NCBI RefSeq assembly: GCF_037902255.1
Contig: NZ_CP147990.1
Location: 120,001-152,000, forward strand
Direction: 5' to 3'
Length of the DNA stretch: 32,000 bases
Origin: Candidatus Electrothrix sp. GW3-4
GTDB lineage: Bacteria; Desulfobacterota; Desulfobulbia; Desulfobulbales; Desulfobulbaceae
Both the position numbers and the translations under genes were made by a program. The first letter of the stretch is position 1. Every line of letters starts with the position of its first letter. Below, one piece after another: positions 1,938 to 31,062 of this stretch. The notes beneath the pieces are model-generated. The model was not told the origin of the DNA and made no database searches. It saw nothing but the letters and a program-made list of their open reading frames with translations.

Positions 1938-2786
1938 ATGAGTAATGAGGAACAATGGGATCTGGTGATTAAGCCGAAAATAGGGTGGTTTGATATCCAT
2001 CTTGGGGAGCTTTGGCGTTATCGGGATCTGGTTGCCATGTTTGTGAAGCGTGATTTTGTCACCATGTATAAGCAGACCATCTTAGGTCCCTTATGGTTCA
2101 TTATTCAGCCGTTATTCACTACATTAATTTTTACTGTGGTCTTTGGCAAAGTGGCGAAGATTCCCACGGATAGTCTCCCTCCCTTTCTTTTTTACCTGTC
2201 TGGTAATGTTGCCTGGGGGTATTTTGCAACTTGTCTGGGCAAAACTTCAGACACCTTTAATACTAATGCCCGAATTTTTGGAAAAGTCTATTTTCCTCGG
2301 CTGACAGTGCCATTTTCTTCAGTTTTTTCGGGGTTATTACAGTTTGCTATTCAGTTTCTTCTTTTTTTAGCCTTTTATTCTTATTTTATGTTGAAGGGAA
2401 CGCCTATTCATCCCAAGTTTTGGATTGTCGCTCTTCCTGTTCTCTTACTGCAAATGGCGTTACTGGGTTTCGGTATGGGGGTTTTGGTCTCATCCTTGAC
2501 GACGAAGTACAAGGATCTCCGTTTTGCTATGGGATTTATGACCCAGCTTTGGATGTATGGCACACCCATTGTCTATCCTCTAACGTTGGTTCCTGACTGG
2601 TTAAGGCCGTGGTATGCGCTTAATCCTATGGTTTCGATTGTGGAATGTTTTCGCTATGCTTTCCTTGGATCTGGAGTGATTGTATGGGGTGATGTTATTT
2701 CTGGATGGCTGGTGACGTTATTTATCCTGTGTGCTGGAATTATTCTCTTTAGCCGTGTCGAGAAAACCTTTATGGATACAGTGTGA
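1938..2786 (+). CDS. wzm: ABC-2 type polysaccharide exporter permease (Wzm)
   Basis: 282-aa polytopic hydrophobic protein with the typical N-terminal WRYRDLVAMFVKRDFVTMYKQTILGPLWFIIQP segment of Wzm/TagG/KpsM permeases. It sits directly upstream of the cognate ATPase. Confidence 0.9.
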   Translation: MSNEEQWDLVIKPKIGWFDIHLGELWRYRDLVAMFVKRDFVTMYKQTILGPLWFIIQPLFTTLIFTVVFGKVAKIPTDSLPPFLFYLSGNVAWGYFATCLGKTSDTFNTNARIFGKVYFPRLTVPFSSVFSGLLQFAIQFLLFLAFYSYFMLKGTPIHPKFWIVALPVLLLQMALLGFGMGVLVSSLTTKYKDLRFAMGFMTQLWMYGTPIVYPLTLVPDWLRPWYALNPMVSIVECFRYAFLGSGVIVWGDVISGWLVTLFILCAGIILFSRVEKTFMDTV

Positions 2787-2842
2787 TATCCAGATGTGAT
2801 TTGGTTTTTTGTGTCTAACTGTATATTAAAAGTAAATATTTT

Positions 2843-4135
2843 ATGTCGGTAGTTATAAAAATAGAGGATCTCTGGAAAGAATACCGCCTTGGCGTTATCG
2901 GGCACGGTACCTTGACCCATGATCTTGAGTCTTGGTGGGCACGGGTGCGCGGCAAAGAAGATCCTAACTCCAAAATTACCCCTATGCTGGCCGGGCAGGA
3001 GAAACAGATTGAGGGAGATCATTTTTGGGCCTTGCAGGGGATTAATCTGGAGGTTAAAGAAGGTGAAATTCTTGGTATTATAGGCAAGAACGGGGCTGGG
3101 AAGTCAACCTTACTCAAGATTCTTTCACGTGTTACAGCCCCCACGAAGGGAACGATCAAGGTTAAAGGCCGCATTGCGAGCTTGCTGGAAGTTGGAACAG
3201 GTTTTCATCCTGAACTTACAGGACGAGAAAATATTTTTTTGAATGGTGCGATCCTTGGGATGTCCAAGCAGGAAATCAAAGCAAAATTAGATGAGATTAT
3301 AGATTTTTCTGGCGTAGAAAAATTTGTTGATACACCTGTAAAAAGATATTCCTCAGGGATGTATGTACGTCTTGCCTTTGCTGTTGCTGCTCACCTAGAC
3401 CCGGAAATTCTCATTATTGATGAAGTATTAGCTGTTGGGGATGCCGAATTTCAGAAGAAATGTTTGGGGAAAATGAGGAGTGTTGCACAGCAAGGACGGA
3501 CTGTTTTGTTTGTTAGTCACAATATGATTGCTGTAAAATCGTTGTGCAAATCGGCTGTGTTGATACAGGATGGAAAAAATGTCCAGACTGATGAGGTAGG
3601 AAAGGTAGTTAACACATACCTAAGTTATAGCGAAGAATCTGTAGTAGCGAGGGAGTGGTCTGATACTGACGACACGGCGCCCAAAGGGGATTATTTTAAG
3701 CTGAAAAAAATATTTGTAAAGCCGTCTGGAAGTGTTGATAATTGTCTGGAGATTCCAGTTGAGTATCCCATAGAGTTAGGAATTGATGTATTGCAATTTG
3801 GCGATGCGGGAGAACTTGATTTTACCTTTCATGTAAAGTCAGAGAACAATATCGTTTTTACAACAGGTACTCTGCACTGTGACGATCTGATATCGAGGAA
3901 TTTTGTTCAGGGACGGTGTAAGTATCGGTGTACAATTCCAGCGAACTATTTAAACAGTCGGCCCTATAGTGTAGACCTACTAATAGTGAGAAACCAAAAT
4001 AAGGTAATTTGTAAGTTGGATGATATTTTGTCTTTTGAACCTGTTGAATCAAAAAAGCGTAATGTAGCTTATATGGGAAAAAGACCAGGTCTTGTCGGGC
4101 CATATTTCCCTTGGTCTGTTTTAGGGGAGCTGTGA
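2843..4135 (+). CDS. wzt: Polysaccharide ABC exporter ATP-binding protein (Wzt) with ~170-aa C-terminal extension (putative glycan-cap-binding domain)
   Basis: Walker A GKNGAGKST (nt 3083-3109), signature YSSGM, Walker B ILIIDE, H-loop FVSHN. The ORF is 430 aa, whereas a bare NBD is ~250 aa. The region from nt ~3620 to 4135 forms an extra domain, as in O-antigen Wzt proteins. Confidence 0.9.
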   Translation: MSVVIKIEDLWKEYRLGVIGHGTLTHDLESWWARVRGKEDPNSKITPMLAGQEKQIEGDHFWALQGINLEVKEGEILGIIGKNGAGKSTLLKILSRVTAPTKGTIKVKGRIASLLEVGTGFHPELTGRENIFLNGAILGMSKQEIKAKLDEIIDFSGVEKFVDTPVKRYSSGMYVRLAFAVAAHLDPEILIIDEVLAVGDAEFQKKCLGKMRSVAQQGRTVLFVSHNMIAVKSLCKSAVLIQDGKNVQTDEVGKVVNTYLSYSEESVVAREWSDTDDTAPKGDYFKLKKIFVKPSGSVDNCLEIPVEYPIELGIDVLQFGDAGELDFTFHVKSENNIVFTTGTLHCDDLISRNFVQGRCKYRCTIPANYLNSRPYSVDLLIVRNQNKVICKLDDILSFEPVESKKRNVAYMGKRPGLVGPYFPWSVLGEL

Positions 4136-4139
4136 TCAC

Positions 4140-5330
4140 ATGACTGTCTCCAATAAAAAACAGATAGTTTCACGTAAAGATCTCGCAATTAACGGAGCCC
4201 TTCCTGCATTTGTAGAGCCCCTACATGTTGGTAGGCCGAATATCGGAAATCGTGATGCTTTTCTTCAGCGAATTAACGATATTTTAGATAGAGGCTGGTT
4301 AACAAACAATGGTCCTGTTGTACAGGAGTTTGAGCAGAGAGTGGCTGACTACCATAGTGTGAAAAACTGTGTAGCCATGTGCAACGGAACGGTAGCCCTT
4401 GAAATAGCCATCCGTTCCTTAGGGCTTAGTGGAGAGGTAATTGTCCCTTCCTTTACTTTTATAGCCACTGCTCATGCTCTGCACTGGCAAGCCATTAACC
4501 CGGTCTTTGCAGATATTGATTCCGAAACACATACCCTTGATCCTGTAGCCGTTGAAAAAATGATAACCTCAAGGACTACAGGAATCATTGGTGTGCATCT
4601 TTGGGGAAGGCCGTGTGCTGTTGAAGAGTTGCAGCTTCTTGCTGATAAATACAATTTGAAGCTCATGTTTGATGCTGCTCATGCATTTGGATGTATGTAC
4701 AAAGGAACAAGTATAGGTGCTTTCGGAGATTGTGAGGTTTTGAGTTTTCATGCTACAAAATTTTTCAATACCTTCGAAGGGGGAGCCGTTTTAACCAATG
4801 ATGATGAGTTGGCCGATACCATGCGCTTGATGCGTAATTTCGGTTTTATCGGTATGGATAAGGTTATTCATCCAGGAACAAACGGCAAGATGACCGAGTT
4901 TGCAGCGGCAATGGGGTTAGTTAATTTGGATTCTATTGATGATGTAATTCAAGCTAATATCCGAAATTACCAACTTTATCAGGAAGAATTGTCAGCTTTA
5001 CCTGGTATTCGCCTGATCTCCTATGATAAATTAGAGCGAAATAATTATCAGTATATTGTTATGGAAGTTGGTGACGGATGCCCTGTAAGCCGTGATCAGA
5101 TTATTAATGCACTTCATGCAGAGAATATTAGGGCACGTAGATATTTTTGGCCTGGCTGCCATAACATGAGCCCTTATAGCGACCTGTATCCGCATGCAGG
5201 TTTACTGCTAACGAACACTCAACTGGTGGCGGATAGGATTGTTGTTTTGCCAACGGGGGCAACAATAAATGCTGAAGTGATTAAAATTATTTTCTCTGTG
5301 ATTCGTGTGTTAATCGAGGATGTGCAATGA
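4140..5330 (+). CDS. DegT/DnrJ/EryC1/StrS-family PLP-dependent sugar aminotransferase
   Basis: 396 aa. Contains the family pattern NGTVALEIAIRSLGL...EVIVPSFTFIATAHA and the PLP-lysine motif SFHATKFFNTFEGGAV. Substrate specificity cannot be assigned by eye. Confidence 0.9.
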   Translation: MTVSNKKQIVSRKDLAINGALPAFVEPLHVGRPNIGNRDAFLQRINDILDRGWLTNNGPVVQEFEQRVADYHSVKNCVAMCNGTVALEIAIRSLGLSGEVIVPSFTFIATAHALHWQAINPVFADIDSETHTLDPVAVEKMITSRTTGIIGVHLWGRPCAVEELQLLADKYNLKLMFDAAHAFGCMYKGTSIGAFGDCEVLSFHATKFFNTFEGGAVLTNDDELADTMRLMRNFGFIGMDKVIHPGTNGKMTEFAAAMGLVNLDSIDDVIQANIRNYQLYQEELSALPGIRLISYDKLERNNYQYIVMEVGDGCPVSRDQIINALHAENIRARRYFWPGCHNMSPYSDLYPHAGLLLTNTQLVADRIVVLPTGATINAEVIKIIFSVIRVLIEDVQ

Positions 5331-6064
5331 AAGTTGCGATAATGCAACCGTATATTTTTCCGTATATTGGTTATTTTCAGCTTATTAACTATGTAGATAA
5401 ATGGGTAATCTTTGACGATACTCAATATATTTCAAAGGGATGGATTAATAGAAATAGAATGGTTCATCCTGATGTAAAGAAAGAGTGGCAATATTTTACT
5501 GTTCCCGTAAAAAAACACTCGCGTGAGAGCAAGATAAATCATATTGAAATAAATAATAACGTTGACTGGAGAGGTGAGTTTCTACGCAAGCTGGAGGGGG
5601 CCTATAAGAAAAAAGCTCCTTATTATAGAGAAACAATAAGTTTTGTCGAGGAATGTATAGATTTCAGAGCATCATCGTTATCTGAGTGGATAGAGCATAC
5701 CCTCAAATTTACTTGTGATTATTTGGATATTGCGTTTGACTACTTAGTTTTTTCTAAGATGAATATTGGTCTCAAAGAAGTAGATCATGCTGGGCAGTGG
5801 GCATTGGAGATTGCGGACGCAATGGGTGCAGCAGAATATGTTAATCCAGCTGGAGGATACACGATATTTAATGAAAGTGAGTTTCAATCAAGAAATATTA
5901 AGCTGCGTTTCCTTAAACCACAATTGAACCCTTATGTTCAACGTAGAGGCTATTTCGTGCCTGGGTTATCCATTGTTGATGTACTTATGTGGAATGATAA
6001 AGAATATATAGTGTCAATACTTGACGATTATGATGTGTTTTCTTATCAAGAATTGATTGGGTAA
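5327..6064 (+). CDS. wbqC: WbqC-family protein (function unassigned)
   Basis: 245 aa. The N-terminus MKVAIMQPYIFPYIGYFQLINYVDKWVIFDDTQYISKGWINRNR matches the WbqC-like family pattern. An ATGA overlap joins it to the aminotransferase stop. Confidence 0.75.
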   Translation: MKVAIMQPYIFPYIGYFQLINYVDKWVIFDDTQYISKGWINRNRMVHPDVKKEWQYFTVPVKKHSRESKINHIEINNNVDWRGEFLRKLEGAYKKKAPYYRETISFVEECIDFRASSLSEWIEHTLKFTCDYLDIAFDYLVFSKMNIGLKEVDHAGQWALEIADAMGAAEYVNPAGGYTIFNESEFQSRNIKLRFLKPQLNPYVQRRGYFVPGLSIVDVLMWNDKEYIVSILDDYDVFSYQELIG

Positions 6065-6069
6065 GTGTT

Positions 6070-6771
6070 ATGAGAGAGGATATTAAACGTTATTATCGTG
6101 AGCGCTTAAACAACACTAAGGGAAAGAATACATTATGGCAGGTTGGCAAGACAGTTAATGGAAAAGAAATTACTGATGAACAGGTTAATTTGATTGTAGC
6201 TACAATAGCTAAAAGATTAAATATACAAAAGACAGATTTTGTCTTGGACATCGGTTGTGGTAATGGATTGTTGACTAAGAAGATTTCTGGATATGTTAGT
6301 GAAATTGTCGGGTTAGAGCTTACTTTAGAGCTGTTTGACGTTTCTAACCTTATTAGTAGGGCAGATAATATCACTTATATTAATAGCGATATATTTGACT
6401 TTGATATTAATAGTCATAAGAAATCATTTGATAAAATATATTTATATGAAGTAATACAGCATATTGATTACAAGGATGCGGATGATTTTTTTTCTAAATT
6501 AAATGATATAGCTGGTGAAAACACAAGTATTTTTATAGGAGGTGTTCTCGATATAGAAAAAAAATGGAGTTTTTTTGATTCTTTTGAAAGAAGGTGTGAT
6601 TACTTTTCGGGGATTATTTCTGGAAGAAATCCATTGGGCACTTGGTACCATAAAGATTTTTTAAAATACCTTGGCAAAAAATATAATTTTGAAGCAATTT
6701 GTTTTTCGCAAGAAGAAAGTTTGTATACAGCGCATTATCGTTTTGATTGTTTATTGAATAGGATACGTTAA
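6070..6771 (+). CDS. Class I SAM-dependent methyltransferase
   Basis: 233 aa. Motif I is VLDIGCGNGLLT, followed by an acidic residue after beta-2 (GLELT) and FDKIYLYEVIQHI (motif II/III region). Confidence 0.85.
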   Translation: MREDIKRYYRERLNNTKGKNTLWQVGKTVNGKEITDEQVNLIVATIAKRLNIQKTDFVLDIGCGNGLLTKKISGYVSEIVGLELTLELFDVSNLISRADNITYINSDIFDFDINSHKKSFDKIYLYEVIQHIDYKDADDFFSKLNDIAGENTSIFIGGVLDIEKKWSFFDSFERRCDYFSGIISGRNPLGTWYHKDFLKYLGKKYNFEAICFSQEESLYTAHYRFDCLLNRIR

Positions 6772-7574
6772 TGTATAAAAAAATTTTAATTATCTGTGGT
6801 ATGCCTCGTTCTGGTACGAGTTGGTTAGGGCAAATTTTTGATAGTTCACCAGATGTTGCCTTTCGTATGGAACCTCTTTTTGCATATCGTTTTAAAAATA
6901 TTATTAATGACCGTTCCTCTAAAAAAGACGTACTGAATTTTTTTGAAAAGGTATATTTTTCTGATGATGACTTTATCAATCAAAAAGAAAATAGAATTAA
7001 TGGTATATATCCTTCTGTTTTAAAAAGTAATAAATCAAAATTTTTGGTTGTAAAAACGACTCGGCATCATTGCTTGCTGGAGAGATATTTAGAATTAATA
7101 GATAACGTAGAGATCATTTCAATAATAAGGAACCCGTGTGCTGTAATTAATTCTTGGATTAATACAGATCGTGAGTTTAAAAAGAAAGGATGTATTGAAG
7201 AAATTGATTGGAAAAACGGTAATTGTCGGAAAGATAGTGAAGGAGAATTTTGGGGATTTGACGATTGGTTGTCGGTCACTAAGAAACATTTAATGTTTAA
7301 TGAAAAATATAGTAATTTTAATATTGTCAAATATACGGATCTTGTCAATAAAACAGAAGAGACAGTTCGTAATCTTTTTAAAAGAGTAGGTGTTCCATAC
7401 AGTGACCAGACCGTAAATTTTTTAAGAGATTGTCATGGTAGACATGATGATAACCCTTATTCAATATATAAGAGTCCTGATGTGGAAAATAAATGGAAAA
7501 AAGAATTAAGCATTGAAATATCAGAACAAATAATAAATGAAACCAGAAGGGAAGGTTTAGGGGAGTTTATATAA
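6771..7574 (+). CDS. Sulfotransferase-family protein (ST1)
   Basis: 267 aa. N-terminal 5'-PSB P-loop ILIICGMPRSGTSWLGQIF, 3'-PB motif IIRNPCAVINSW, and the C-terminal VKYTDLVNKTEETVRNLFKRVGVPY segment typical of bacterial sulfotransferases. The start overlaps the previous stop (TAATG). Confidence 0.8.
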   Translation: MYKKILIICGMPRSGTSWLGQIFDSSPDVAFRMEPLFAYRFKNIINDRSSKKDVLNFFEKVYFSDDDFINQKENRINGIYPSVLKSNKSKFLVVKTTRHHCLLERYLELIDNVEIISIIRNPCAVINSWINTDREFKKKGCIEEIDWKNGNCRKDSEGEFWGFDDWLSVTKKHLMFNEKYSNFNIVKYTDLVNKTEETVRNLFKRVGVPYSDQTVNFLRDCHGRHDDNPYSIYKSPDVENKWKKELSIEISEQIINETRREGLGEFI

Positions 7575-7585
7575 TATCTTTTATT

Positions 7586-9450: not shown

Positions 9451-9462
9451 AAGGAAAATAAA

Positions 9463-9489
9463 ATGAGCATAACTTATAGTTATGCTCAT
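9463..9489. repeat. Perfect 11-bp inverted repeat with 5-nt loop (ATGAGCATAAC-TTATA-GTTATGCTCAT)
   Basis: Read directly from the sequence. It begins 13 nt after the TGA at 9448-9450 and is not followed by a T-run. Confidence 0.85.
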
Positions 9490-9556
9490 CAAGTGCCATT
9501 ATTGGTCGTATCTTCTGGTAAATAAAAAGAATATAACCGCTTATATTGTATCTTTA

Positions 9557-9600
9557 AGCACAGCTACTGTCGCGTGCTGTGCTGTAGTATTATTTTTATA
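9557..9600 (+). terminator. Candidate weak intrinsic terminator / operon break
   Basis: An 8-bp stem AGCACAGC (9557-9564) pairs with GCTGTGCT (9576-9583) across an 11-nt loop, followed by T-rich GTAGTATTATTTTTATA. The loop is long and the stem short, so this is marginal. Confidence 0.25.
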
Positions 9601-9605
9601 AGTTT

Positions 9606-11502: not shown

Positions 11503-11589
11503 TGCTCTGTTTTCGGTAGTTACATTTTTTAGGATCATGATGGTAGATGTGTTTGTACGCAAGCTGTTTGGATTCATTCTTTTTTTTAA

Positions 11590-21130: not shown

Positions 21131-21161
21131 GAGCAAGCCTGTTGAGAAGGGAGAGCATATA

Positions 21162-25302: not shown

Positions 25303-26140
25303 GGAAATCATGGTAGAATCACGAGGTGTTGTCTATGTGGCGACTGGCGAAAAATTTGTTACTGAGGCATTAATTTCTGTTCGATCTGTCAAAAGACAGA
25401 TGCCGGAACTTCCCGTTACTCTGTTTACCGATCTTCAGGAATTGGTTGCGAGCCCTCCTGAAGGTGTTGACGTTGTTTTCCATCTTACCCAGGTGACCAA
25501 TTCCTGCCTGGATAAGATGTATCCTCTGGCAGAGAGTCCCTATGAGAGGACATTATTCCTTGATACGGATACCTATCTCTGCGATCGAATTGATGAGCTT
25601 TTCGACGTGCTTGATAACTATGATATCGCTGCCGCTCATCCACCCTATAGGGTGCAATACCATCTCCCAGATATCCCAGAATGTTTTCCAGAGCCAAATA
25701 CCGGGGTTATTGCCTTTAAGAGAACTTCTGGTGCCTTGGAAGTGTTGAGTAACTGGTCGAAAGAGTATAAGAAACAACTGGCTTCCCCAAATAAGCCACA
25801 TCATGATCAGCATTCTTTTCGAGCAGCCTTATATCATTCAACGGCCCGTTTTCTGGTTCTCCCTCAGGAATATAATTTTCGTAATATAGGCCCCAATTTC
25901 GCGGGAAAAGGCAGCAAAATAAAGATTATTCATGGTCGACATGCCAGCTTTGAGCGGTTGGAGGCCAGATTGAATGCCAATCTTGATTACCGGGTTTTTC
26001 TTATGCATCCTGGGCGAATTTTTACTCATGAACTGGTGACGTATAAGGGGGCTGTCGAAGCCCTGAATAATGCCGTATTCGAGGCCTTACCAAATCCGAT
26101 AAAGCATCTTTTATCGAATTTGCGCAGGCGGTGTTCGTGA
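25295..26140 (+). CDS. GT8-like nucleotide-diphospho-sugar glycosyltransferase
   Basis: 281 aa. The ATG at 25310 is preceded by AAGGAA and is an alternative start. VVYVATGEKFVTEALISVRSV, LFLDTDTYLCDRIDELFDVLDNYDIAAAH (DXD) and NTGVIAFK match the GT8 layout. Confidence 0.7.
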   Translation: MDKEIMVESRGVVYVATGEKFVTEALISVRSVKRQMPELPVTLFTDLQELVASPPEGVDVVFHLTQVTNSCLDKMYPLAESPYERTLFLDTDTYLCDRIDELFDVLDNYDIAAAHPPYRVQYHLPDIPECFPEPNTGVIAFKRTSGALEVLSNWSKEYKKQLASPNKPHHDQHSFRAALYHSTARFLVLPQEYNFRNIGPNFAGKGSKIKIIHGRHASFERLEARLNANLDYRVFLMHPGRIFTHELVTYKGAVEALNNAVFEALPNPIKHLLSNLRRRCS

Positions 26141-27309
26141 AGTCAAAGGGGAATATACCTCGTACGGATGAAGAAATGACGGTTACGCAGCATGAACATT
26201 TGGCTAAGGAAAGAGCAGGTAATCTGAAACCGTTACACGGTATTCGTGGTTTTGCCGTCCTCCTCGTCCTTCTGTCTCATGCCGCAAATGACAAGGTGTT
26301 GTTGTTTGATGCGATAAACTTGAGCGGAGCAGGCCATTACGGAGTCTTTCTTTTTTTTGTGTTAAGTGCATTTTTGTTAACACGGCAGTTTTTAGAGCTG
26401 GATCAAGGACAAATATTTATTGTGCCGGTTTTGCGACATTATTTTCTACGGCGTATTTTGAGAATATATCCTCTTTTTATCGTCGCGTTAGGAGGATATT
26501 TGCTTCTTTATAAAGCAGGATTTCTGATAGTTCCTCTTTCTTTGGAAATGATGTTGAAGAGCCTGCTCCTTTTGGATGCAGAAGAATTTTTTTGGACGAT
26601 TCCTGTAGAATTTCAATACTATTTTATCCTTCCCTTGATGGCCTTTTTCCTTGTTAAAATATCGAACTCTTATTACCTCCTTTTGGGAGGTGTTCTCTTT
26701 TGTCTGGGCTGGCAGCTCCTTTTTCCGCCTCAGTACACTGCACACGTTCTCCCGTTTTTACCGACTTTTGTCCTTGGCTCCTTAACCGCAAAAGCGTACA
26801 AATTGATCCACGAAAGAAAAGTCTCTCAGCAAGAGACACGCACAGACACTGATCGAAGGCAGAATTTGTATAATTTCTTGGCATGGGCTATAGTTGTTTC
26901 GTTTTTTCTTCTGGTGCCGAATATATTAGAAAAGTTATTTGGTTCCTGGATAAAGCAAATTGATATTCAGCATCAGTTTCTCCTTTTTGGTTTATTGAGT
27001 AGTGGGTTGATTCTCACGACGCTTCTTGGAAATGGAAGGATACGGCATTTGATGGAAAGCTCGTTTTTCACCTTCTGGGGGAAAGTGAGCTTTAGCGCGT
27101 ATTTGGGGCATAAGGTACTTCTGGCCTTGATTCATGATTTTTTTCAGGTATCGCCTCCGCTTCAATTTATTCTCTTTTTTTCTGCAACTGCTTTCTGTTC
27201 TTACCTCTCATACAGGTACTTTGAAAAGCCCTTGGCTGGAATCCATGTTTTATGGAAAGGAATAGAAGGAGATAACGGGAGGAATAAACAGGTGGTTTTG
27301 AATGGTTGA
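26131..27309 (+). CDS. Acyltransferase family 3 integral membrane protein
   Basis: 392 aa. LKPLHGIRGFAVLLVLLSHA (conserved His), FWTIPVEFQYYFILP, and about 10 hydrophobic spans. The start is uncertain (GTG 26131, GTG 26137 or ATG 26176). Confidence 0.85.
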   Translation: MFVKSKGNIPRTDEEMTVTQHEHLAKERAGNLKPLHGIRGFAVLLVLLSHAANDKVLLFDAINLSGAGHYGVFLFFVLSAFLLTRQFLELDQGQIFIVPVLRHYFLRRILRIYPLFIVALGGYLLLYKAGFLIVPLSLEMMLKSLLLLDAEEFFWTIPVEFQYYFILPLMAFFLVKISNSYYLLLGGVLFCLGWQLLFPPQYTAHVLPFLPTFVLGSLTAKAYKLIHERKVSQQETRTDTDRRQNLYNFLAWAIVVSFFLLVPNILEKLFGSWIKQIDIQHQFLLFGLLSSGLILTTLLGNGRIRHLMESSFFTFWGKVSFSAYLGHKVLLALIHDFFQVSPPLQFILFFSATAFCSYLSYRYFEKPLAGIHVLWKGIEGDNGRNKQVVLNG

Positions 27310-28330
27310 TGTTACCCTCCTTCTCCCTGTGTATAATGGTGAGCGTTATTTGCGGGAAACCCTTCAGAGCCTGTTGTCTCAGACATACACAGACTTTGAG
27401 CTGCTTATTGTTGACGACGGTTCTACAGATAGTTCGGCTGACATAATTCGTCGTTTTGCCGACCCCCGTATTCGTCTCCTCAAAAATCCTGAGCGACTAA
27501 AGTTATCCGGTGCTTTAAATCGTGGTATGAAAGAGGCTAAGGGAAGATATATTGCCCGGATGGATGCAGATGATATTGCCCTCCCACGGCGTTTGCAGCA
27601 GCAATTTGCTTATATGGAAGCACATCCCGAAGTTGGAATGTGTGGTACAGCGATTGAGATTTTCGGGAAGGATCATCCTCGGCGGGATGTGTACCCCGCA
27701 ACCTCTGATGCCATTAGGGCCTATGGTCTTTTTGACTGCCCGTTTTGCCATCCCTCGGTCATGATGCGTAAGGGTATGTTTTTCCAATATGATCTTTGGT
27801 ATGATGGCGAATATTATCCCACAGAGGACTATGAACTATGGGCTCGGGCAATTGAGCTCTTTCCTACGGTCAATCTGGATGAGGTTCTGCTCCGCTATCG
27901 GATTCATGAAAGCAGTATGACAGGATCTGATTGGGATGCGATGGATAAACAGGCTGCCAGGGTGGCCCTTCCTCTCCTGCATAATTTAGGTGTATTGCCG
28001 TCAAAAACAGAGCTGCGATTGCACCGGAATATTGGGCGTGGTCGAAGTTGTCAGCTCCGGGATATGGAAGAAGTGGAGCAAGCTGAGCAATGGCTGAAGC
28101 GGTTAATCACAGCAAATCAGCAAAGAGAATGCTATAACCCCGTCGCCCTTGCACGAACTATTGCTCTGATCTGGTTTCGTGTCTGCATGAATTCTTCTTC
28201 CCTCGGTTTTGTCTTGCTGAGCAAATACGCAACAAGTAGTCTCCGAAAACGGGACGAAAAGTCTATCTCCAATCTGCTGACTCTGCTGGCCTCTGTTGTG
28301 AAACAGCAGCTTGTTCGGAAAACAACTTGA
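27302..28330 (+). CDS. Family 2 glycosyltransferase with ~130-aa C-terminal extension
   Basis: 342 aa. VTLLLPVYNGERYLRETLQSLLSQTYTDFELLIVDDGSTDSS, YIARMDADD (DXD), and TEDYELWAR. Confidence 0.9.
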   Translation: MVDVTLLLPVYNGERYLRETLQSLLSQTYTDFELLIVDDGSTDSSADIIRRFADPRIRLLKNPERLKLSGALNRGMKEAKGRYIARMDADDIALPRRLQQQFAYMEAHPEVGMCGTAIEIFGKDHPRRDVYPATSDAIRAYGLFDCPFCHPSVMMRKGMFFQYDLWYDGEYYPTEDYELWARAIELFPTVNLDEVLLRYRIHESSMTGSDWDAMDKQAARVALPLLHNLGVLPSKTELRLHRNIGRGRSCQLRDMEEVEQAEQWLKRLITANQQRECYNPVALARTIALIWFRVCMNSSSLGFVLLSKYATSSLRKRDEKSISNLLTLLASVVKQQLVRKTT

Positions 28331-28337
28331 TTCCTGC

Positions 28338-29291
28338 ATGCAATCTCCGCTCATCACTGTCATTATCTGTACCCATAATAGGGAGCAATTTCTAGGATCT
28401 TGCCTGAAGAGTCTGTATCAGCAAACGCTTCCTCAGGAAGAGTACGAGGTGCTTGTTGTTGATAATGCATCCACCGATAGAACAAAGGCTGTCTGCGAAG
28501 AGTATCTTCCCCATGAAAATTTTTGTTACATTTTTGAGGCGATCCCTGGGCTTTCCCAAGCACGGAACACCGGTTGGCAGCATGGGCAGGGACGGTATAT
28601 AGCCTTCATTGATGATGATGCGACAGCTGTCCCGGATTGGTTGGAGAAAATTCTTGTCAGTTTTCAGGAATCCGAACTTGAGCCTGATTGGGTGGGGGGG
28701 CCGGTTAATCTGGTCTGGGAAAAAGAGCCTCCAGCATGGTTGACCAGAGAGTATTTCAGTGCGCTGGGTTGGGTTGATTGGGGAACAGAGGCCCGATTGC
28801 TCGACCCTCAAAGAGAGTGGTTAGTGGGCTGTAACTGTATTCTTAAAAAGGCTACGCTGGAAAGGTTTGGTGGATTTGATACAAGGTTAGGACGAAAAAA
28901 AGATCTTCTCCTTTCTGGCGAAGAAGTGCAACTGCATCATCGCATCCAGGCAGCTGGCGGGAGTTTTTACTATCATCCGGGTGTAAAAGTAAATCACCAT
29001 GTCGCTGCCTTTCGTATCAAACCAGGGTATTTTTATCGGCGGTATTATTGGGGAGGCATTACGGATTTCATAATGGCTAAGACCCTCCACGATGTCCCTT
29101 CTCAAAATAGAGTTGAGCAGCCTGAGCAGAGTCAGTGGGCAAGGCTAACAACAAATCTACTGCACTGTACGGGTCTGTTTTCTTCCTATGATAGAGCTGT
29201 AGCAAGTCGTATCTATATGGCCTATGTGATAGGGTGGATGCGGGCTGTGGTCAAATTCTCTTGGCGCAAGGTGGATCTGGAAACATTATGA
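28338..29291 (+). CDS. Family 2 glycosyltransferase
   Basis: The track ORF starts at TTG 28311, overlapping the upstream gene. The in-frame ATG at 28338 gives MQSPLITVIICTHNREQFLGSCLKSLYQQTLPQEEYEVLVVDNASTDRT, followed by YIAFIDDDA (DXD). Confidence 0.9.
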   Translation: MQSPLITVIICTHNREQFLGSCLKSLYQQTLPQEEYEVLVVDNASTDRTKAVCEEYLPHENFCYIFEAIPGLSQARNTGWQHGQGRYIAFIDDDATAVPDWLEKILVSFQESELEPDWVGGPVNLVWEKEPPAWLTREYFSALGWVDWGTEARLLDPQREWLVGCNCILKKATLERFGGFDTRLGRKKDLLLSGEEVQLHHRIQAAGGSFYYHPGVKVNHHVAAFRIKPGYFYRRYYWGGITDFIMAKTLHDVPSQNRVEQPEQSQWARLTTNLLHCTGLFSSYDRAVASRIYMAYVIGWMRAVVKFSWRKVDLETL

Positions 29292-30295
29292 ACCCGAACA
29301 GGAACCAGGAAATTAAGCTCATCGGGCTGAGCGACGGCTTTCATACGGCTGAAGCGCCACAACTCTCGGTCCTTCTTCCGACCTATAATCGGGCAGAGGC
29401 CCTGCACCGGACCCTTCAAGGACTTGAACAGCAGAGCGCAGACAAGGCCACGTATGAGGTTATTGTGGTGGACGACGGCTCGGATGACCGTACCCCGGAG
29501 GTGCTGGAGCAGTTTACCGCCCAGACAGGGTTGCTGTTTCGTTATGTCTTGCTTAAGGAGAACGGTGGCCCGGCTCGGGCCCGCAATATCGGCCTGTCCA
29601 TGATACGCGGCAAAGCTGTGTTCATCACTGGCGATGACATTGAGCCTAGCGAGACCTTGGTGGAACGGCATCTTCAGTTTCATCAACAGCACTCAGAAAA
29701 AGGAGCCGCCTTGCTGGGCTATGTTTCCTTTCCAGAAGCTCTGGATGCTAATCCCTTTATGCGCTGGCTGGCGACACAAGGCAGGGCCTATTTTTTCAAT
29801 TACGCAGACCTGACACCAGGAAAAGAGGCCGGTCCGCTATTTTTCTACACCTGTAATGTCTCTGTCAAGACCTCGCTGTTGGAGCAAACGGGCTGGTTCG
29901 ACGAATCCTTTCCCTATGCCTCTCACGAAGATCTGGAGTTAGGATGTCGACTTGCTGAGCAGGGGATGCGCCTGATCTATGAGCCTGCTGCTGAAGGATT
30001 TCATTGGCATTTGCTGACCGTGCAAGGGATCACCCGACGGGTGTATTTGATGGGCTATTCTGCCAGGTTATTTTGGGCCAAGGTTAAACAGCAAGACGGG
30101 ATTCTCAAGCGGAGCCTGCGCAGGATTTTGGTTCTCTGTTGCTCTGCTCCCTGGGGAATATGGGCATGGAACTGGCTGCGAAAGCAAGAGTATTCGGGAC
30201 AGCAGGCCTATCCTGTACAATGGCGGCTGCTTCTTTTTCTCAGTTTTTTCATTGGCCTTGCTGATGGATATAAGAACCGGGAAATCAGAGTATAG
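29288..30295 (+). CDS. Family 2 glycosyltransferase with hydrophobic C-terminal segments
   Basis: The in-frame ATG at 29288 forms an ATGA overlap with the upstream stop. LSVLLPTYNRAEALHRTLQGLEQQSADKATYEVIVVDDGSDDRT, FITGDD (DXD) and SHEDLELGCR. The C-terminal LVLCCSAPWGIWAWNWL and LLLFLSFFIGLA are hydrophobic. Confidence 0.9.
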   Translation: MNPNRNQEIKLIGLSDGFHTAEAPQLSVLLPTYNRAEALHRTLQGLEQQSADKATYEVIVVDDGSDDRTPEVLEQFTAQTGLLFRYVLLKENGGPARARNIGLSMIRGKAVFITGDDIEPSETLVERHLQFHQQHSEKGAALLGYVSFPEALDANPFMRWLATQGRAYFFNYADLTPGKEAGPLFFYTCNVSVKTSLLEQTGWFDESFPYASHEDLELGCRLAEQGMRLIYEPAAEGFHWHLLTVQGITRRVYLMGYSARLFWAKVKQQDGILKRSLRRILVLCCSAPWGIWAWNWLRKQEYSGQQAYPVQWRLLLFLSFFIGLADGYKNREIRV

Positions 30296-30360
30296 CTCCA
30301 TTGCCACTTCTCGTTTTCGGAAAGATACTTGTTACATATAACGCAGAGAGTTTATTGAAA

Positions 30361-31062
30361 ATGCCAGATTATCAAAATGTATTAGCTCAGATAAAGGCCT
30401 TGCCTGCTGATTGGCATGGTTCCGGTCCCTTATCTGATGCAGTGTTGCAAAAAATAGCTGATTACTGCGCCGGTATTGCCCCTATTCATTATAGTATGGA
30501 AACTGGTGCGGGAAAATCCACCTTGTTTTTTTCACAGATATCTGAACATCATCTGGCCTTTGCCCTTGATGTGGGAAAAAGTCTGACCAGGGTACGAGAG
30601 TCCTCCCTTTTTCGTCAGGAACGCACGGAGCTCATAACCGGTCCGACTCAACAGACTGTGCCTGCATTCACTTTCACAAAGCCATTGCAGGTTGCTCTGA
30701 TTGACGGACCGCATGGGTATCCCTTTCCTGAGTTGGAATATTATTATATCTATCCTCATCTCGCCGAGAATGCCCTGTTAATCCTTGATGACACCAATAT
30801 TCCCACGATCAAGAGAATGGCCGAAATCCTGAGTGCTGATGATATGTTTGAGTGTATAGAGGTGCTGGGGAAAACAACATTTTTTCGTCGAACAGCAGCG
30901 CCTGTCTTCGATCCTCTGGCTGACGGCTGGTGGGACCAGGGATATAACAGATCTTTTTTAAATAAAAGTAATCGGCTGAATAGCCTGAAGGCCAAGATCC
31001 CGCCGTCATTATTTAAGTTGATTCCCGAATCACTGAAACTCTCAGTGCAGAAATATCTTTAG
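30361..31062 (+). CDS. Class I SAM-dependent methyltransferase (Methyltransf_24-like)
   Basis: The ATG at 30361 is in frame within the track ORF 30301-31062. METGAGKSTLFFS (motif I of this subfamily) and VALIDGPHGYPFPELEYYYIYPHLAENALLILDDT. Confidence 0.65.
   Translation: MPDYQNVLAQIKALPADWHGSGPLSDAVLQKIADYCAGIAPIHYSMETGAGKSTLFFSQISEHHLAFALDVGKSLTRVRESSLFRQERTELITGPTQQTVPAFTFTKPLQVALIDGPHGYPFPELEYYYIYPHLAENALLILDDTNIPTIKRMAEILSADDMFECIEVLGKTTFFRRTAAPVFDPLADGWWDQGYNRSFLNKSNRLNSLKAKIPPSLFKLIPESLKLSVQKYL

What the first reader, a model, noticed from the sequence alone, without database searches (positions are those of the whole stretch)
1938..31062. Six sulfotransferase-fold genes in one Wzm/Wzt glycan locus: predicted poly-sulfated, methylated, acylated bacterial polysaccharide
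Seen in sequence: six ORFs (6771-7574, 8521-9450, 10450-11502, 13611-14762, 15702-16292, 24457-25302) carry an N-terminal PAPS 5'-phosphosulfate-binding loop: GMPRSGTSWL, SQPRAGSTLL, GAMKSGTTLL, GLGRTGTTSF, TTGRSGTAYL, and a divergent ACTGGSLI. Five of the six also carry a 3'-phosphate-binding RNP/RDP-type motif: IIRNPCAVINSW, LVRNPLSVLSS, IVRDPRENLASL, SVRDPIDSWLG, HRRSARDVARSM. The sixth (15702-16292) follows the Sulfotransfer_4 layout instead. They are interleaved with at least 13 glycosyltransferase domains, four SAM methyltransferases, two acyltransferase-3 proteins and wzm/wzt, all on one strand. Established knowledge: in ABC-transporter-dependent pathways the polymer is completed on the cytoplasmic face, where PAPS and SAM are available. 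Glycan sulfation is documented in only a few bacterial systems (rhizobial Nod factor/LPS/K-antigen, mycobacterial sulfoglycolipids, some cyanobacterial or marine EPS). Inference: this locus builds a densely decorated polyanionic glycan with several regiospecific sulfations before export. I do not know of a characterised bacterial locus with this combination, but I cannot search to confirm novelty. The window contains no initiating phosphoglycosyltransferase, ligase, outer-membrane exporter or PAPS-supply gene (cysDN/cysC/cysQ), so the system extends beyond it.
Basis: partly seen in the sequence, partly recalled or inferred. Interest (0 to 1): 0.8.

Follow-up and report, generated by a model that had tools for sequence, protein, structure and literature searches.

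The report
Six-sulfotransferase glycan locus, cable bacterium
A cable bacterium (Candidatus Electrothrix sp. GW3-4) carries a roughly 33-kb surface-sugar gene cluster with six very different sulfotransferase-like genes, so its envelope probably carries a heavily sulfated sugar polymer that nobody has looked for chemically.

Summary
All six ORFs and all quoted motifs exist, although the finding lists the motifs in a different order from the coordinates. Four ORFs (ST1, ST3, ST4, ST5) pass Pfam sulfotransferase thresholds. ST2 is borderline, but its homologues carry Pfam sulfotransferase hits and its model matches sulfotransferase structures. ST6 has no Pfam hit; a confident model matches sulfotransferases best and it keeps the GRSGT loop, an R-x7-S motif and a His.

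The window comes from the cable bacterium Candidatus Electrothrix sp. GW3-4. The "one Wzm/Wzt locus" reading is only partly right, because the cluster is a mosaic. A conserved block (13.6 kb to beyond 32 kb, with ST5 and ST6) is shared with other Electrothrix and Electronema. A low-GC, strain-specific cassette (1.4-13.5 kb: MarR, wzm, wzt, amino-sugar genes, ST1-3, four GTs) sits in the variable slot. E. communis has no wzm/wzt there.

PAPS supply could not be tested and no chemistry exists. Sulfotransferase-bearing polysaccharide loci are already known in Synechocystis and Vibrio sp. KMM 8419. This is therefore an unusually sulfotransferase-dense variant in an unstudied lineage, not a new kind of system. 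Interest is moderate.

The parts
18..1253 (+). 3' part of a 524-aa fusion protein: GFO/IDH/MocA oxidoreductase plus hexapeptide acyltransferase (UDP-GlcNAc 3-dehydrogenase-like plus N-acetyltransferase-like). It forms the conserved left edge of the locus.
   Evidence: Pfam and NCBIfam hits. The full 524-aa gene is present in the Logan contig. It is 90% identical in E. communis.
1396..1914 (+). MarR-like regulator, the first gene of the strain-specific cassette
   Evidence: MarR_2, 3.4e-7. No counterpart in the E. communis locus.
1938..2786 (+). Wzm, an ABC-2 permease
   Evidence: ABC2_membrane, 2.1e-17. NCBIfam hits to Wzm/RfbD and KpsM models. 53-55% identical to Wzm of Bacteroidota MAGs.
2843..4135 (+). 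Wzt, the ABC ATPase, with a C-terminal extension that may be a carbohydrate-binding domain
   Evidence: ABC_tran, 8.1e-24. Best PDB match is Aquifex aeolicus Wzt, 3.7e-67. Weak Wzt_C hit at E 2.4e-4, below the cut-off. The nearest full-length relatives are in Bacteroidota at about 50% identity.
4140..5330 (+). DegT/DesI-like sugar aminotransferase (4-amino-4,6-dideoxyhexose type)
   Evidence: DegT_DnrJ_EryC1, 2.9e-104. TIGR04427 DesI at 484 bits, below the cut-off of 650.
5327..6064 (+). WbqC-family protein
   Evidence: PF08889, 2.4e-63
6070..6771 (+). SAM methyltransferase MT-a
   Evidence: Methyltransf_25/_11 and RrnaAD hits. GC content 30%.
6771..7574 (+). ST1, sulfotransferase (Sulfotransfer_3/_1)
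   Evidence: 6.8e-16 and 5.1e-13, above the gathering score. PSB loop PRSGTS and R120-x7-S.
7586..8524 (+). 312-aa protein, possibly a GT-A glycosyltransferase
   Evidence: Only a weak Glycos_transf_2 hit, E 0.022. No PDB hit. 36% identical to an ORF in the syntenic Nitrospirae locus L032.
8521..9450 (+). ST2, a divergent sulfotransferase-fold protein with an atypical phosphosulfate loop
   Evidence: Sulfotransfer_1 at 22.2 bits against a cut-off of 22. Homologues at about 40% identity carry PF13469/PF00685. Model pLDDT 86.7; top PDB hits are sulfotransferases. The family has an invariant TGGS instead of K/R-xG-T/S.
9606..10460 (+). GT2 glycosyltransferase (GT2-a)
   Evidence: Glycos_transf_2, 4.7e-22
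10450..11502 (+). ST3, sulfotransferase (Sulfotransfer_3)
   Evidence: 2.7e-31. NoeE model at 88.9 bits, below the equivalog cut-off. Direct sequence hits to the OLS and CurM sulfotransferases and to TPST in the PDB. 47% identical orthologue in Nitrospirae locus L032.
11637..12524 (+). GT2 glycosyltransferase (GT2-b)
   Evidence: Glycos_transf_2, 2e-31
12624..13548 (+). GT2 glycosyltransferase (GT2-c). In the window it is split into two ORFs by a C7 tract at 13028-13034.
   Evidence: The N-terminal part hits Glycos_transf_2 at 2.4e-34. The Logan short-read assembly has C9 and an intact 308-aa gene.
13611..14762 (+). ST4, sulfotransferase (Sulfotransfer_3)
   Evidence: 5.8e-31. 55.5% identical orthologue in the variable region of E. 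communis.
14759..15667 (+). SAM methyltransferase MT-b, the start of the conserved block
   Evidence: Methyltransf_23, 8.5e-18. 86-91% identical in E. communis, E. scaldis and E. aestuarii.
15702..16292 (+). ST5, sulfotransferase (Sulfotransfer_4)
   Evidence: 8.3e-28. NCBI names it 'sulfotransferase family protein'. Orthologues are 91% identical in E. scaldis, 88% in E. communis and 76% in Electronema sp. PJ.
16346..17128 (+). SAM methyltransferase MT-c
   Evidence: Methyltransf_23/_31/_11 hits
17162..18193 (+). Acyl_transf_3 membrane O-acyltransferase (AT3-a)
   Evidence: PF01757, 4.2e-16
18216..19025 (+). GT2 glycosyltransferase (GT2-d)
   Evidence: Glycos_transf_2, 1.4e-7
19070..21130 (+). 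Two-domain GT4 glycosyltransferase (686 aa), a candidate polymerising enzyme
   Evidence: Two Glycos_transf_1 stretches. 84-94% identical in E. communis and E. scaldis, 69% in Electronema sp. PJ.
21087..22136 (+). 349-aa GT-B-like protein
   Evidence: Weak Glyco_trans_1_2 hit, E 0.019. 80% identical in E. communis.
22123..23244 (+). GT4 glycosyltransferase
   Evidence: Glycos_transf_1, 1e-19
23266..24453 (+). Conserved 395-aa protein of unknown fold
   Evidence: No Pfam, NCBIfam or PDB hit. 60-80% identical in three Electrothrix species.
24457..25302 (+). ST6, a member of a sulfotransferase-fold family with no significant Pfam hit
   Evidence: Model pLDDT 92.6. The top PDB hits are sulfotransferases, TPST at 3.8e-6. 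Invariant G29, R30, G32, H95, R119 and S127. The family has 1241 clusters. It occurs fused to GT2, Methyltransf_24 and GT25 domains elsewhere.
25295..26140 (+). 281-aa protein, GT8-like or nucleotide-sugar-transferase-like
   Evidence: Weak Nucleotid_trans hit, E 0.0036. Conserved next to ST6 in all the cable bacteria examined.
26131..27309 (+). Acyl_transf_3 membrane O-acyltransferase (AT3-b)
   Evidence: PF01757, 2.2e-23
27302..30295 (+). Three consecutive GT2 glycosyltransferases (27302-28330, 28311-29291, 29234-30295)
   Evidence: Glycos_transf_2 at 1.4e-37, 2.1e-30 and 3e-26
30301..31062 (+). Methyltransf_24 methyltransferase
   Evidence: PF13578, 1e-8. 93% identical in E. aestuarii.
31096..32000 (+). 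N-terminal 301 aa of a ~680-aa polytopic membrane protein (GT-C / PMT_2-like) that runs off the window
   Evidence: Open frame to the end of the window. 75-77% identical to the 680-aa genes of E. communis and E. aestuarii, one of which has a weak PMT_2 hit.

Best explanation
The window is most of a roughly 33-kb envelope-glycan locus of the cable bacterium Candidatus Electrothrix sp. GW3-4. The locus is a mosaic of two parts.

**Conserved block.** This runs from about 13.6-14.8 kb to beyond 32 kb and is shared with other Electrothrix and Electronema. It encodes:
- a two-domain GT4 enzyme
- further GT4 and GT2 enzymes
- three methyltransferases
- two membrane O-acyltransferases
- a GT-C enzyme
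- the sulfotransferases ST5 and ST6

ST4 lies at its edge.

**Strain-specific cassette.** A low-GC, horizontally acquired cassette (1.4-13.5 kb) sits in the variable slot between the conserved GFO/hexapeptide gene and this block. It looks like a self-contained ABC-transporter-dependent O-polysaccharide module:
- a MarR regulator
- Wzm and Wzt, the latter with a probable carbohydrate-binding tail
- a DesI-like aminotransferase, WbqC and a methyltransferase
- four glycosyltransferases
- three sulfotransferase-fold proteins (ST1-3)

**Inferred mechanism.**
1. Sugars are assembled on a lipid carrier at the cytoplasmic face.
2. There they are O-sulfated (possibly also N-sulfated) from PAPS and methylated from SAM.
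3. At least the cassette product is exported by Wzm/Wzt.
4. Acetylation by the Acyl_transf_3 proteins and any GT-C glycosylation happen outside the cytoplasm.

**What is shown and what is inferred.** Shown: family and fold assignments, motif conservation, synteny and the mosaic structure. Inferred: PAPS as donor, glycan as acceptor, regiospecific multiple sulfation, and the export route. Whether GW3-4 makes one polymer or two is unresolved. I lean slightly towards two products, or a conserved part plus a serotype-specific part.
For: - **Sulfotransferase assignment.** Pfam places four of the six above threshold. ST3 matches solved sulfotransferases by sequence. ST2 and ST6 give confident models whose best PDB matches are sulfotransferases. 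A PSB loop of K/R-x-G-T/S type occurs in five of six and an R-x7-S motif in five of six.
- **Distinct specificities.** The six are no more than 27% identical to each other over alignments of 60 or more residues, so they are not recent duplicates.
- **Organism.** ST6 and ST5 are 100% identical to proteins of Ca. Electrothrix sp. GW3-4 on a 4.64-Mb contig.
- **Mosaic structure.** E. communis keeps GFO-hexapeptide at 90% identity and everything from MT-b onward at 70-86%. Between them it has different genes and no wzm/wzt. E. scaldis has a Sulfotransfer_2 gene and an MBOAT gene in its variable part. Electronema sp. PJ keeps ST5-GT2-dGT4-GT4-ST6-GT8like-GT2.
- **Foreign origin of the cassette.** Cassette genes have 30-42% GC against 44-53% for the block. 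The nearest full-length Wzt relatives are in Bacteroidota. Syntenic cassettes occur in a Nitrospirae MAG (DegT 62%, ST3 47%) and a Bacteroidia MAG (wzm-wzt-DegT-WbqC).
- **Wzt identity.** Its best structural relative by sequence is the Aquifex O-antigen exporter. There is a weak Wzt_C match.
- **ST6 and glycans.** The ST6-family domain is fused to GT2, Methyltransf_24, GT25 and GT-D domains in other organisms. That ties it to glycan modification.
- **APS availability.** APS is an intermediate of the reverse sulfate-reduction pathway proposed for cable bacteria (PMC6976610).
Against: - No PAPS-supply gene is in the window, and the rest of the genome could not be searched with these tools.
- No chemical evidence for ester sulfate in cable bacteria was found in the papers searched.
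- ST2 lacks the basic PSB residue and the R-x7-S spacing.
- ST6 has no significant Pfam or PDB sequence match. Its TM-scores to sulfotransferases are only 0.4-0.5, and nucleotide kinases appear lower in the same list.
- One cassette glycosyltransferase is frameshifted in the window.
- The export route of the conserved block is unknown.
- The survey of 80 Wzt loci used HMMs I built myself. These missed a Sulfotransfer_2 gene in E. scaldis, so the background rate of sulfotransferases is a lower bound.
Confidence: 0.55

Rival explanations
1. The whole 30-kb cluster makes one polymer, completed in the cytoplasm, carrying up to six regiospecific sulfations plus methyl and acyl groups, and exported by the single Wzm/Wzt pair.
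For: All genes lie on one strand with short or overlapping junctions. No Wzx, Wzy or second exporter was found in the window or in the related loci. A two-domain GT4 enzyme is typical of ABC-dependent polymerases.
Against: wzm/wzt are absent from the orthologous locus of E. communis, the closest complete relative, which keeps the 3' block intact. The GC content and closest relatives of the cassette differ from those of the block. The cassette has syntenic stand-alone relatives in other phyla.
Confidence: 0.3
2. Only four or five of the six are active sulfotransferases. ST2, and possibly ST6, are sulfotransferase-fold proteins with another role: a pseudoenzyme, a binding protein, or a transferase or kinase using a different nucleotide.
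For: The ST2 family has an invariant TGGS in place of the K/R-containing PSB loop and lacks R-x7-S. ST6 has no significant Pfam match. A profile of the ST6 family against ST3 aligns only the loop, E 0.04. NMP and deoxynucleoside kinases also appear among the structural matches.
Against: Sulfotransferases dominate the top structural hits for both proteins. ST2 homologues pass Pfam sulfotransferase models. The ST2 family aligns to ST3 across the 3'-PB region, E 5e-5. ST6 keeps GRSGT, ETSH and R119-x7-S127 as invariant positions. Neither protein has a Walker-A GK[ST] motif.
Confidence: 0.3
3. The sulfotransferases act on a non-glycan acceptor, for example a lipid (sulfolipid) or a protein or peptide tyrosine. 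The second option fits the TPST/RaxST-like structural matches.
For: TPSTs and the CurM/OLS (polyketide) sulfotransferases are the closest solved relatives.
Against: The genes are interleaved with 13 or more glycosyltransferase domains, sugar-nucleotide enzymes and a glycan exporter. The ST6 domain is fused to glycosyltransferases elsewhere. The PDB holds few bacterial carbohydrate sulfotransferases, so the top hits reflect what has been solved. NoeE, a carbohydrate sulfotransferase, is the only NCBIfam hit.
Confidence: 0.07
4. The locus, or its cassette, is decaying or silent, so the sulfated product is not made.
For: GT2-c is frameshifted in the window sequence.
Against: The frameshift is a two-base difference in a homopolymer. 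An independent short-read assembly of the same strain has the gene intact, and the rest of the 12.9 kb compared is identical. All other ORFs are intact.
Confidence: 0.05

Closest known systems
Sulfated capsule locus of Vibrio sp. KMM 8419 (PMC11641403)
   Same: It is a bacterial polysaccharide cluster with an ABC transporter, several sulfotransferases (three), glycosyltransferases and an acyltransferase. Sulfation is thought to occur in the cytoplasm before export. The cluster has atypical GC content and shows signs of horizontal transfer.
   Different: The Vibrio cluster uses a KpsMT-type capsule exporter, not Wzm/Wzt. Its three sulfotransferases are spread over an 80-gene region, against six in 30 kb here. 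It carries its own cysDNC copies for PAPS, and none is present here. Its product is chemically proven; here nothing is.
xss (synechan) cluster of Synechocystis sp. PCC 6803, and other cyanobacterial sulfotransferase-bearing EPS clusters (PMC8205485)
   Same: Sulfotransferases of distinct subfamilies are embedded among glycosyltransferases in one cluster. The authors also note sulfotransferase genes in ABC-type clusters of other cyanobacteria.
   Different: xss uses Wzx/Wzy/PCP, has two sulfotransferases, lies on a plasmid and has its own XssQRS regulators. Here there is no Wzx or Wzy, there are six sulfotransferase-fold genes, the locus is chromosomal, and the organism belongs to Desulfobulbaceae.
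ABC-transporter-dependent O-antigen systems (E. coli O9a Wzm/Wzt/WbdA-D; Aquifex aeolicus Wzm-Wzt structures 6AN5, 7K2T)
   Same: There is a Wzm permease and a Wzt ATPase with a C-terminal extension. There is a multi-domain GT4 enzyme. Methyltransferases are present that could cap the chain. There is no Wzx or Wzy. (The O9a details are from my own knowledge of the pathway.)
   Different: No sulfation is known in those model systems. No WbdD-like kinase was found here. The Wzt_C match is below threshold. wzm/wzt are not conserved with the rest of the locus in related species.
Rhizobial carbohydrate sulfotransferases (NoeE, NodH, LpsS, KpsS)
   Same: They are PAPS-dependent sulfation enzymes acting on bacterial glycoconjugates. 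NoeE is the only NCBIfam model hit by ST1, ST3 and ST4.
   Different: Scores of 23-89 bits are far below the equivalog cut-off of 500. The rhizobial enzymes are single genes acting on Nod factor, LPS or K-antigen, not six genes in one assembly locus.

Membership tests
PAPS-dependent sulfotransferase superfamily (Pfam Sulfotransfer_1/2/3/4) | Significant match to a curated sulfotransferase profile | tested here: met
   Met for ST1, ST3, ST4 and ST5. Borderline for ST2: 22.2 bits against 22, although homologues carry PF13469/PF00685. Not met for ST6, E 0.13.
PAPS-dependent sulfotransferase superfamily (Pfam Sulfotransfer_1/2/3/4) | Sulfotransferase alpha/beta fold | tested here: met
   Tested only for ST2 and ST6. 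Models have pLDDT 86.7 and 92.6. Foldseek top hits are sulfotransferases at 4.3e-7 and 3.8e-6, with TM-scores of 0.4-0.5. Related P-loop kinases appear lower in the lists.
PAPS-dependent sulfotransferase superfamily (Pfam Sulfotransfer_1/2/3/4) | 5'-phosphosulfate-binding loop with a basic residue (K/R-x-G-T/S-T/S) | tested here: met
   PRSGTS, PRAGST, MKSGTT, GRTGTT and GRSGTA in ST1, ST3, ST4, ST5 and ST6. Not met in ST2, whose family has an invariant C-T/S-G-G-S.
PAPS-dependent sulfotransferase superfamily (Pfam Sulfotransfer_1/2/3/4) | 3'-phosphate-binding Arg and Ser (R-x7-S) | tested here: met
   Present at the expected place in ST1 (R120), ST3 (R137), ST4 (R218), ST5 (R73) and ST6 (R119, invariant together with S127). 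ST2 has RDPIDSWLG with no Ser at +8.
PAPS-dependent sulfotransferase superfamily (Pfam Sulfotransfer_1/2/3/4) | PAPS-dependent sulfuryl transfer to an acceptor, and a cellular source of PAPS | not testable with these tools
There is no cysC, cysDN or cysQ in the window. The rest of the genome could not be scanned. Supplement searches of two cable-bacteria genome papers found no mention.
ABC-transporter-dependent (Wzm/Wzt) O-polysaccharide pathway | Wzm ABC-2 permease and Wzt nucleotide-binding protein encoded together | tested here: met
   (Aquifex Wzt, 3.7e-67)
ABC-transporter-dependent (Wzm/Wzt) O-polysaccharide pathway | Wzt C-terminal carbohydrate-binding domain recognising a chain-end cap | tested here: inconclusive
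   Wzt_C at E 2.4e-4, 21.5 bits against a cut-off of 30.4. No structure was predicted.
ABC-transporter-dependent (Wzm/Wzt) O-polysaccharide pathway | No Wzx flippase or Wzy polymerase; polymerisation by cytoplasmic glycosyltransferases | tested here: met
   No Polysacc_synt or Wzy hit in any ORF. A two-domain GT4 enzyme is present.
ABC-transporter-dependent (Wzm/Wzt) O-polysaccharide pathway | The exporter belongs to the same conserved gene set as the assembly enzymes it serves | tested here: not met
   This holds only for the cassette. The 3' block is conserved in E. communis, E. scaldis, E. aestuarii and Electronema sp. PJ with no wzm/wzt in the stretches recovered.
ABC-transporter-dependent (Wzm/Wzt) O-polysaccharide pathway | Initiating phosphoglycosyltransferase (WecA/WbaP) and a ligase (WaaL) or other acceptor step | tested here: not met
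   None is in the window. These genes often lie elsewhere in the genome, so their absence does not exclude the pathway.
Cyanobacterial Xss-type sulfated EPS system | Wzx/Wzy/PCP machinery and XssQRS regulators together with the sulfotransferases | tested here: not met
   No Wzx, Wzy or PCP and no two-component regulators. The only regulator is MarR-like.
NoeE (Nod-factor fucose sulfotransferase) equivalog, NCBIfam NF052394 | Score at or above the equivalog cut-off of 500 bits | tested here: not met
   ST3 88.9 bits, ST1 23.5 bits, ST4 23.3 bits

The most novel reading that the evidence does not exclude
The conserved ST5/ST6-bearing block makes a sulfated polyanionic glycan that is a standard part of the cable-bacterial envelope. 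Candidates are the newly described ~3.8-nm surface layer outside the outer membrane (PMC11976967) and the 'acidic polysaccharide' layer under the conductive fibres (PMC8238962). Its fixed sulfate groups would then contribute to the measured proton conduction along filaments, whose chemical basis is unknown (PMC11789020), or to cation (Ni2+) capture, much as keratan sulfate or Nafion does. Standard fibre-sheath preparations use SDS, so ester sulfate would have been masked. My evidence does not exclude this. It also does not single out cable bacteria: the block occurs in at least one further genome of unknown identity (L089), and ST6-family proteins form 1241 clusters.
Probability: 0.1. Interest if true: 0.8.

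Novelty: new variant of a known kind. Interest (0 to 1): 0.5.

Why it matters
Bacterial polysaccharide sulfation is documented in only a handful of systems, and few loci are linked to a structure. Three things here stand out:
- Six mutually dissimilar sulfotransferase-fold genes, one from a family with no significant Pfam match, sit in one 30-kb assembly locus.
- The organism is a cable bacterium, whose envelope chemistry is central to its electrical and protonic properties and is largely unknown.
- The pair ST5/ST6 is conserved across both cable-bacterial genera.

The locus gives testable predictions: ester sulfate on LPS or EPS, and specific genes to express. It also offers a set of candidate carbohydrate sulfotransferases for biotechnology. 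No held paper mentions both 'cable bacteria' and 'sulfotransferase'.

Tried and rejected
**PAPS supply.**
- I searched the main text of cable-bacteria genome papers, and the supplements of two of them, for cysC, APS kinase, cysQ and sulfotransferase. Nothing was found.
- The key genome paper (PNAS 2019) is not held.
- The tools do not allow a genome-wide scan of GW3-4.

**ST6 classification.**
- A profile of the ST6 family against PDB sequences gave no meaningful hit.
- Profile-profile comparison of the ST6 family with the ST2 family gave no relation. Against ST3 only the loop aligned, E 0.04.

**Other proteins.**
- PDB and Pfam searches for the 395-aa and 312-aa unknowns gave nothing.
- The two-domain GT4 enzyme against the PDB gave only spurious TALE-repeat hits.

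**Sequence elements.**
- The single ops/JUMPStart-like GGCGGTAG lies inside a gene and is expected by chance in 28 of 100 shuffles.
- Promoter-like sites are no more frequent than in shuffles.

**Searches that failed.**
- An exact look-up of ST3 failed because the called gene uses a different start: 346 aa against the 350-aa GTG ORF.
- One broad literature query was wasted on algal polysaccharide reviews.

**Readings rejected.**
- I rejected the idea that the six genes are recent paralogues. They are no more than 27% identical over alignments of 60 or more residues.

Full report
**What is in the window**

The window holds about 32 genes, all on the + strand, with short or overlapping junctions. 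I annotated every ORF of 140 aa or more with Pfam and NCBIfam. In order, they are:
- a truncated GFO/IDH/MocA plus hexapeptide-acyltransferase fusion
- a MarR-like regulator
- Wzm and Wzt
- a DesI-like DegT aminotransferase
- WbqC
- methyltransferase MT-a
- ST1
- a 312-aa possible GT-A protein
- ST2
- GT2-a
- ST3
- GT2-b
- GT2-c (split)
- ST4
- methyltransferase MT-b
- ST5
- methyltransferase MT-c
- an Acyl_transf_3 protein
- GT2-d
- a 686-aa enzyme with two GT4 domains
- a 349-aa GT-B-like protein
- a GT4 enzyme
- a 395-aa unknown
- ST6
- a GT8-like protein
- a second Acyl_transf_3 protein
- three GT2 enzymes
- a Methyltransf_24 enzyme
- from 31096, the N-terminus of a ~680-aa GT-C/PMT_2-like membrane protein that runs off the end

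Ten of those domains are significant in Pfam and three are weak. No ORF matches APS kinase, ATP sulfurylase, CysQ, an initiating phosphoglycosyltransferase, a ligase or an outer-membrane exporter.

**The six sulfotransferase candidates**

All quoted motifs exist, but the finding lists them in a different order from the coordinates. The correct pairing is given in the observation check.

ST1, ST3 and ST4 match Sulfotransfer_3 (6.8e-16, 2.7e-31, 5.8e-31). ST5 matches Sulfotransfer_4 (8.3e-28). All four are above the gathering score. ST3 also matches solved sulfotransferases by sequence: OLS ST at 3.6e-14, CurM ST at 1.1e-12, and TPSTs.

ST2 only just reaches the Sulfotransfer_1 threshold (22.2 bits against 22), and over 48 residues. 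Several further lines place it in the fold:
- Many of its homologues at about 40% identity carry precomputed PF13469/PF00685 hits.
- Its family profile aligns with ST3 over 127 columns (E 5e-5).
- An AlphaFold2 model (pLDDT 86.7) is most similar to CurM ST, TPST, an Alicyclobacillus sulfotransferase, 3-OST and Stf0.

The ST2 family is atypical. The phosphosulfate loop is an invariant C-T/S-G-G-S with no basic residue, and the 3'-phosphate motif lacks the Ser at +8. I treat it as sulfotransferase-fold with uncertain activity.

ST6 has no significant Pfam, NCBIfam or PDB sequence match. The case for it rests on other evidence:
- Its model is confident (pLDDT 92.6, pTM 0.89).
- Its best thirty PDB matches are sulfotransferases (TPST 3.8e-6, SULT1C2, CurM ST, 3-OST), with P-loop kinases only below them. 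TM-scores are modest at 0.4-0.5.
- In 38 family members the positions G29, R30, G32 (GRSGT loop), E92, S94, H95 (a strand-end His as in cytosolic SULTs) and R119...S127 (R-x7-S) are invariant.
- The family is large, with 1241 clusters at 50% identity.
- In other organisms the domain is fused to GT2 plus Methyltransf_24, GT21, GT25, GT-D and Methyltransf_23 domains. One such fusion gives a subthreshold Sulfotransfer_1 hit.

These fusions link the domain to glycan modification. They also mirror its neighbours in the window.

The six proteins are no more than 27% identical to each other over alignments of 60 or more residues. They are six different enzymes, not recent duplicates.

**Is six unusual?**

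I took the 80 loci holding the closest Wzt relatives among one genome for each of 185,579 species, with +/-10 kb of flank. Only four contain any sulfotransferase-like ORF, and none has more than two. One caveat applies. My HMMs missed a Sulfotransfer_2 gene in E. scaldis, so this background rate is a lower bound.

**Organism and comparative anatomy**

ST6 and ST5 are 100% identical to proteins of Candidatus Electrothrix sp. GW3-4, a cable bacterium, on a 4.64-Mb contig. Upstream of the cluster lie ileS, lspA and an M48 peptidase.

Comparison with related loci shows what is conserved and what varies:
- **E. communis (CP130629.1).** The GFO-hexapeptide gene is 90% identical. Everything from MT-b through ST5, the double GT4, the 395-aa unknown, ST6, the GT2 trio and the GT-C gene is 70-86% identical and in the same order. 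Between GFO-hexapeptide and MT-b, E. communis has a GNT-I-like gene, a hexapeptide acyltransferase, an ST4 orthologue (55%), an FdtA-acyltransferase, a DegT and a GT2. It has no wzm or wzt there.
- **E. scaldis.** Its variable part holds a Sulfotransfer_2 gene and an MBOAT gene.
- **E. aestuarii.** It adds a UDP-galactopyranose mutase.
- **Electronema sp. PJ.** It keeps a minimal core: ST5, GT2-d, double GT4, GT4, ST6, GT8-like, GT2.

Window 1396-13548 is therefore a strain-specific cassette in the variable slot of a conserved locus. Three observations fit horizontal acquisition:
- Cassette genes have 30-42% GC, against 44-53% for the conserved block.
- Its Wzt is closest, over its full length, to Bacteroidota proteins.
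- Syntenic relatives exist in a Nitrospirae MAG (wzm, wzt, DegT 62%, GT2, an ST2-like gene, ST3 47%, the 312-aa protein 36%) and in a Bacteroidia MAG (wzm 53%, wzt 47%, DegT, WbqC 37%, plus ST5-like and ST6-like genes).

**Mechanism**

Shown:
- Wzm/Wzt belong to the O-antigen and teichoic-acid exporter family. The best PDB match is Aquifex Wzt at 3.7e-67. There is a weak Wzt_C match.
- No Wzx or Wzy is present.
- A two-domain GT4 enzyme is present.

Inferred from established knowledge of ABC-transporter-dependent pathways:
- The chain is built and decorated at the cytoplasmic face, where PAPS and SAM are available, and then exported.
- Acyl_transf_3 proteins and the GT-C enzyme act outside the cytoplasm.

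APS is an intermediate of the reverse sulfate-reduction pathway proposed for cable bacteria (PMC6976610). Only an APS kinase would then be needed to make PAPS, but I could not test for one.

wzm/wzt travel with the cassette and not with the conserved block. The cassette (ST1-3) may therefore make its own exported polymer, while the block (ST4-6) makes a second, lineage-typical glycan by an unidentified route. Alternatively, the two parts build one polymer. The data do not decide between these.

**Comparison with known systems**

Sulfotransferase-bearing polysaccharide loci are already known:
- The Synechocystis xss cluster has two sulfotransferases and uses Wzx/Wzy. Its authors also note sulfotransferase genes in ABC-type clusters of other cyanobacteria (PMC8205485).
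- Vibrio sp. KMM 8419 has a chemically proven sulfated capsule, a KpsMT ABC transporter, three sulfotransferases and cysDNC in one region (PMC11641403).
- Pontiella is a further example (PMC7356697).
- The rhizobial NoeE model is hit only far below its cut-off.

The kind of system is known. What is new is the density and diversity of sulfotransferase-fold genes, the Wzm/Wzt type of exporter, the mosaic architecture and the host lineage. No held paper contains both 'cable bacteria' and 'sulfotransferase'. Only a mass-spectrometry review contains sulfotransferase, wzm, wzt and sulfated together.

**Context that makes it worth a look**

Several features of the cable-bacterial envelope lack a chemical explanation:
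- Cable-bacterial fibre sheaths rest on an 'acidic polysaccharide' layer, which the authors interpreted as peptidoglycan (PMC8238962).
- A new surface layer outside the outer membrane has been described (PMC11976967).
- Filaments conduct protons along their surface by an unknown chemistry (PMC11789020).

Standard preparations use SDS, which would mask ester sulfate. A link between this locus and any of these features is speculation. I give it a probability of about 0.1.

**Verdict**

This is a new variant of a known kind, of moderate interest (0.5). The weak points are the untested PAPS supply, the complete lack of chemistry, the doubtful ST2, and the unresolved question of one glycan or two.

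Noticed in passing
window 13028-13034 (within 12624-13548): A C7 homopolymer splits a GT2 gene into two ORFs. An independent short-read (Logan) assembly of the same strain has C9 and an intact 308-aa gene. The other 12.9 kb compared is identical. This is either a long-read homopolymer error or a phase-variable switch of a glycosyltransferase.
   Followed up: partly
window 23017-23023, 23827-23834, 28694-28700: Further G7-G8 runs lie inside intact genes (GT4, the 395-aa unknown, GT2-f). They could also be slippage-prone.
   Followed up: no
window 11590-11629: A perfect tandem duplication of a 20-mer (AACTGTAAAGGAAGAAAGTT x2) lies in the intergenic region between ST3 and GT2-b.
   Followed up: no
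window 9462-9490: A 13-bp-stem palindrome lies in the 156-nt gap between ST2 and GT2-a. The terminator scan picked it up on the minus strand. It may be a hairpin or a binding site inside the operon.
   Followed up: no
window 31096-32000: An open frame for a polytopic membrane protein runs off the 3' end. It is the N-terminus of a ~680-aa GT-C/PMT_2-like gene that is conserved at the right edge of the locus in E. communis and E. aestuarii. The finding's end coordinate (31062) therefore stops one gene short.
   Followed up: yes
window 23266-24453: A 395-aa protein is conserved (60-80%) directly upstream of ST6 in three Electrothrix species and is absent from the Electronema sp. PJ core. It has no Pfam, NCBIfam or PDB match.
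   Followed up: partly
window 24457-25302; proteins P0305, P0313, P0347, P0348, P0355, P0366, P0420, P0437: The ST6-type domain defines a large family (1241 clusters at 50% identity) with no significant Pfam match. In other organisms it occurs fused to GT2 plus Methyltransf_24, GT21, GT25, GT-D and Methyltransf_23 domains.
   Followed up: partly
window 4140-13548; loci L032 and L022: The low-GC cassette (30-42% GC) has syntenic relatives in a Nitrospirae MAG and a Bacteroidia MAG. Its Wzt is closer over its full length to Bacteroidota proteins than to the one other cable-bacterial Wzt among the 80 loci kept. This suggests inter-phylum transfer of an O-polysaccharide module that carries its own sulfotransferases.
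   Followed up: partly
window 10450-11502: The GTG start of the mechanical ORF (350 aa) differs from the called gene in public assemblies (346 aa, starting 12 nt downstream). The ORF as listed overlaps GT2-a by 11 nt.
   Followed up: no
locus L089 (GCA_054008355.1, contig JBPNDI010000075.1): A genome of unknown identity carries the same core (double GT4, GT4, ST6-like, MT-b, GT2, ST5-like, GT8-like) at 50-71% identity. Next to it are an ALG3/DUF2304 GT-C enzyme and a UbiA-family prenyltransferase. The conserved block may therefore not be restricted to known cable bacteria.
   Followed up: no
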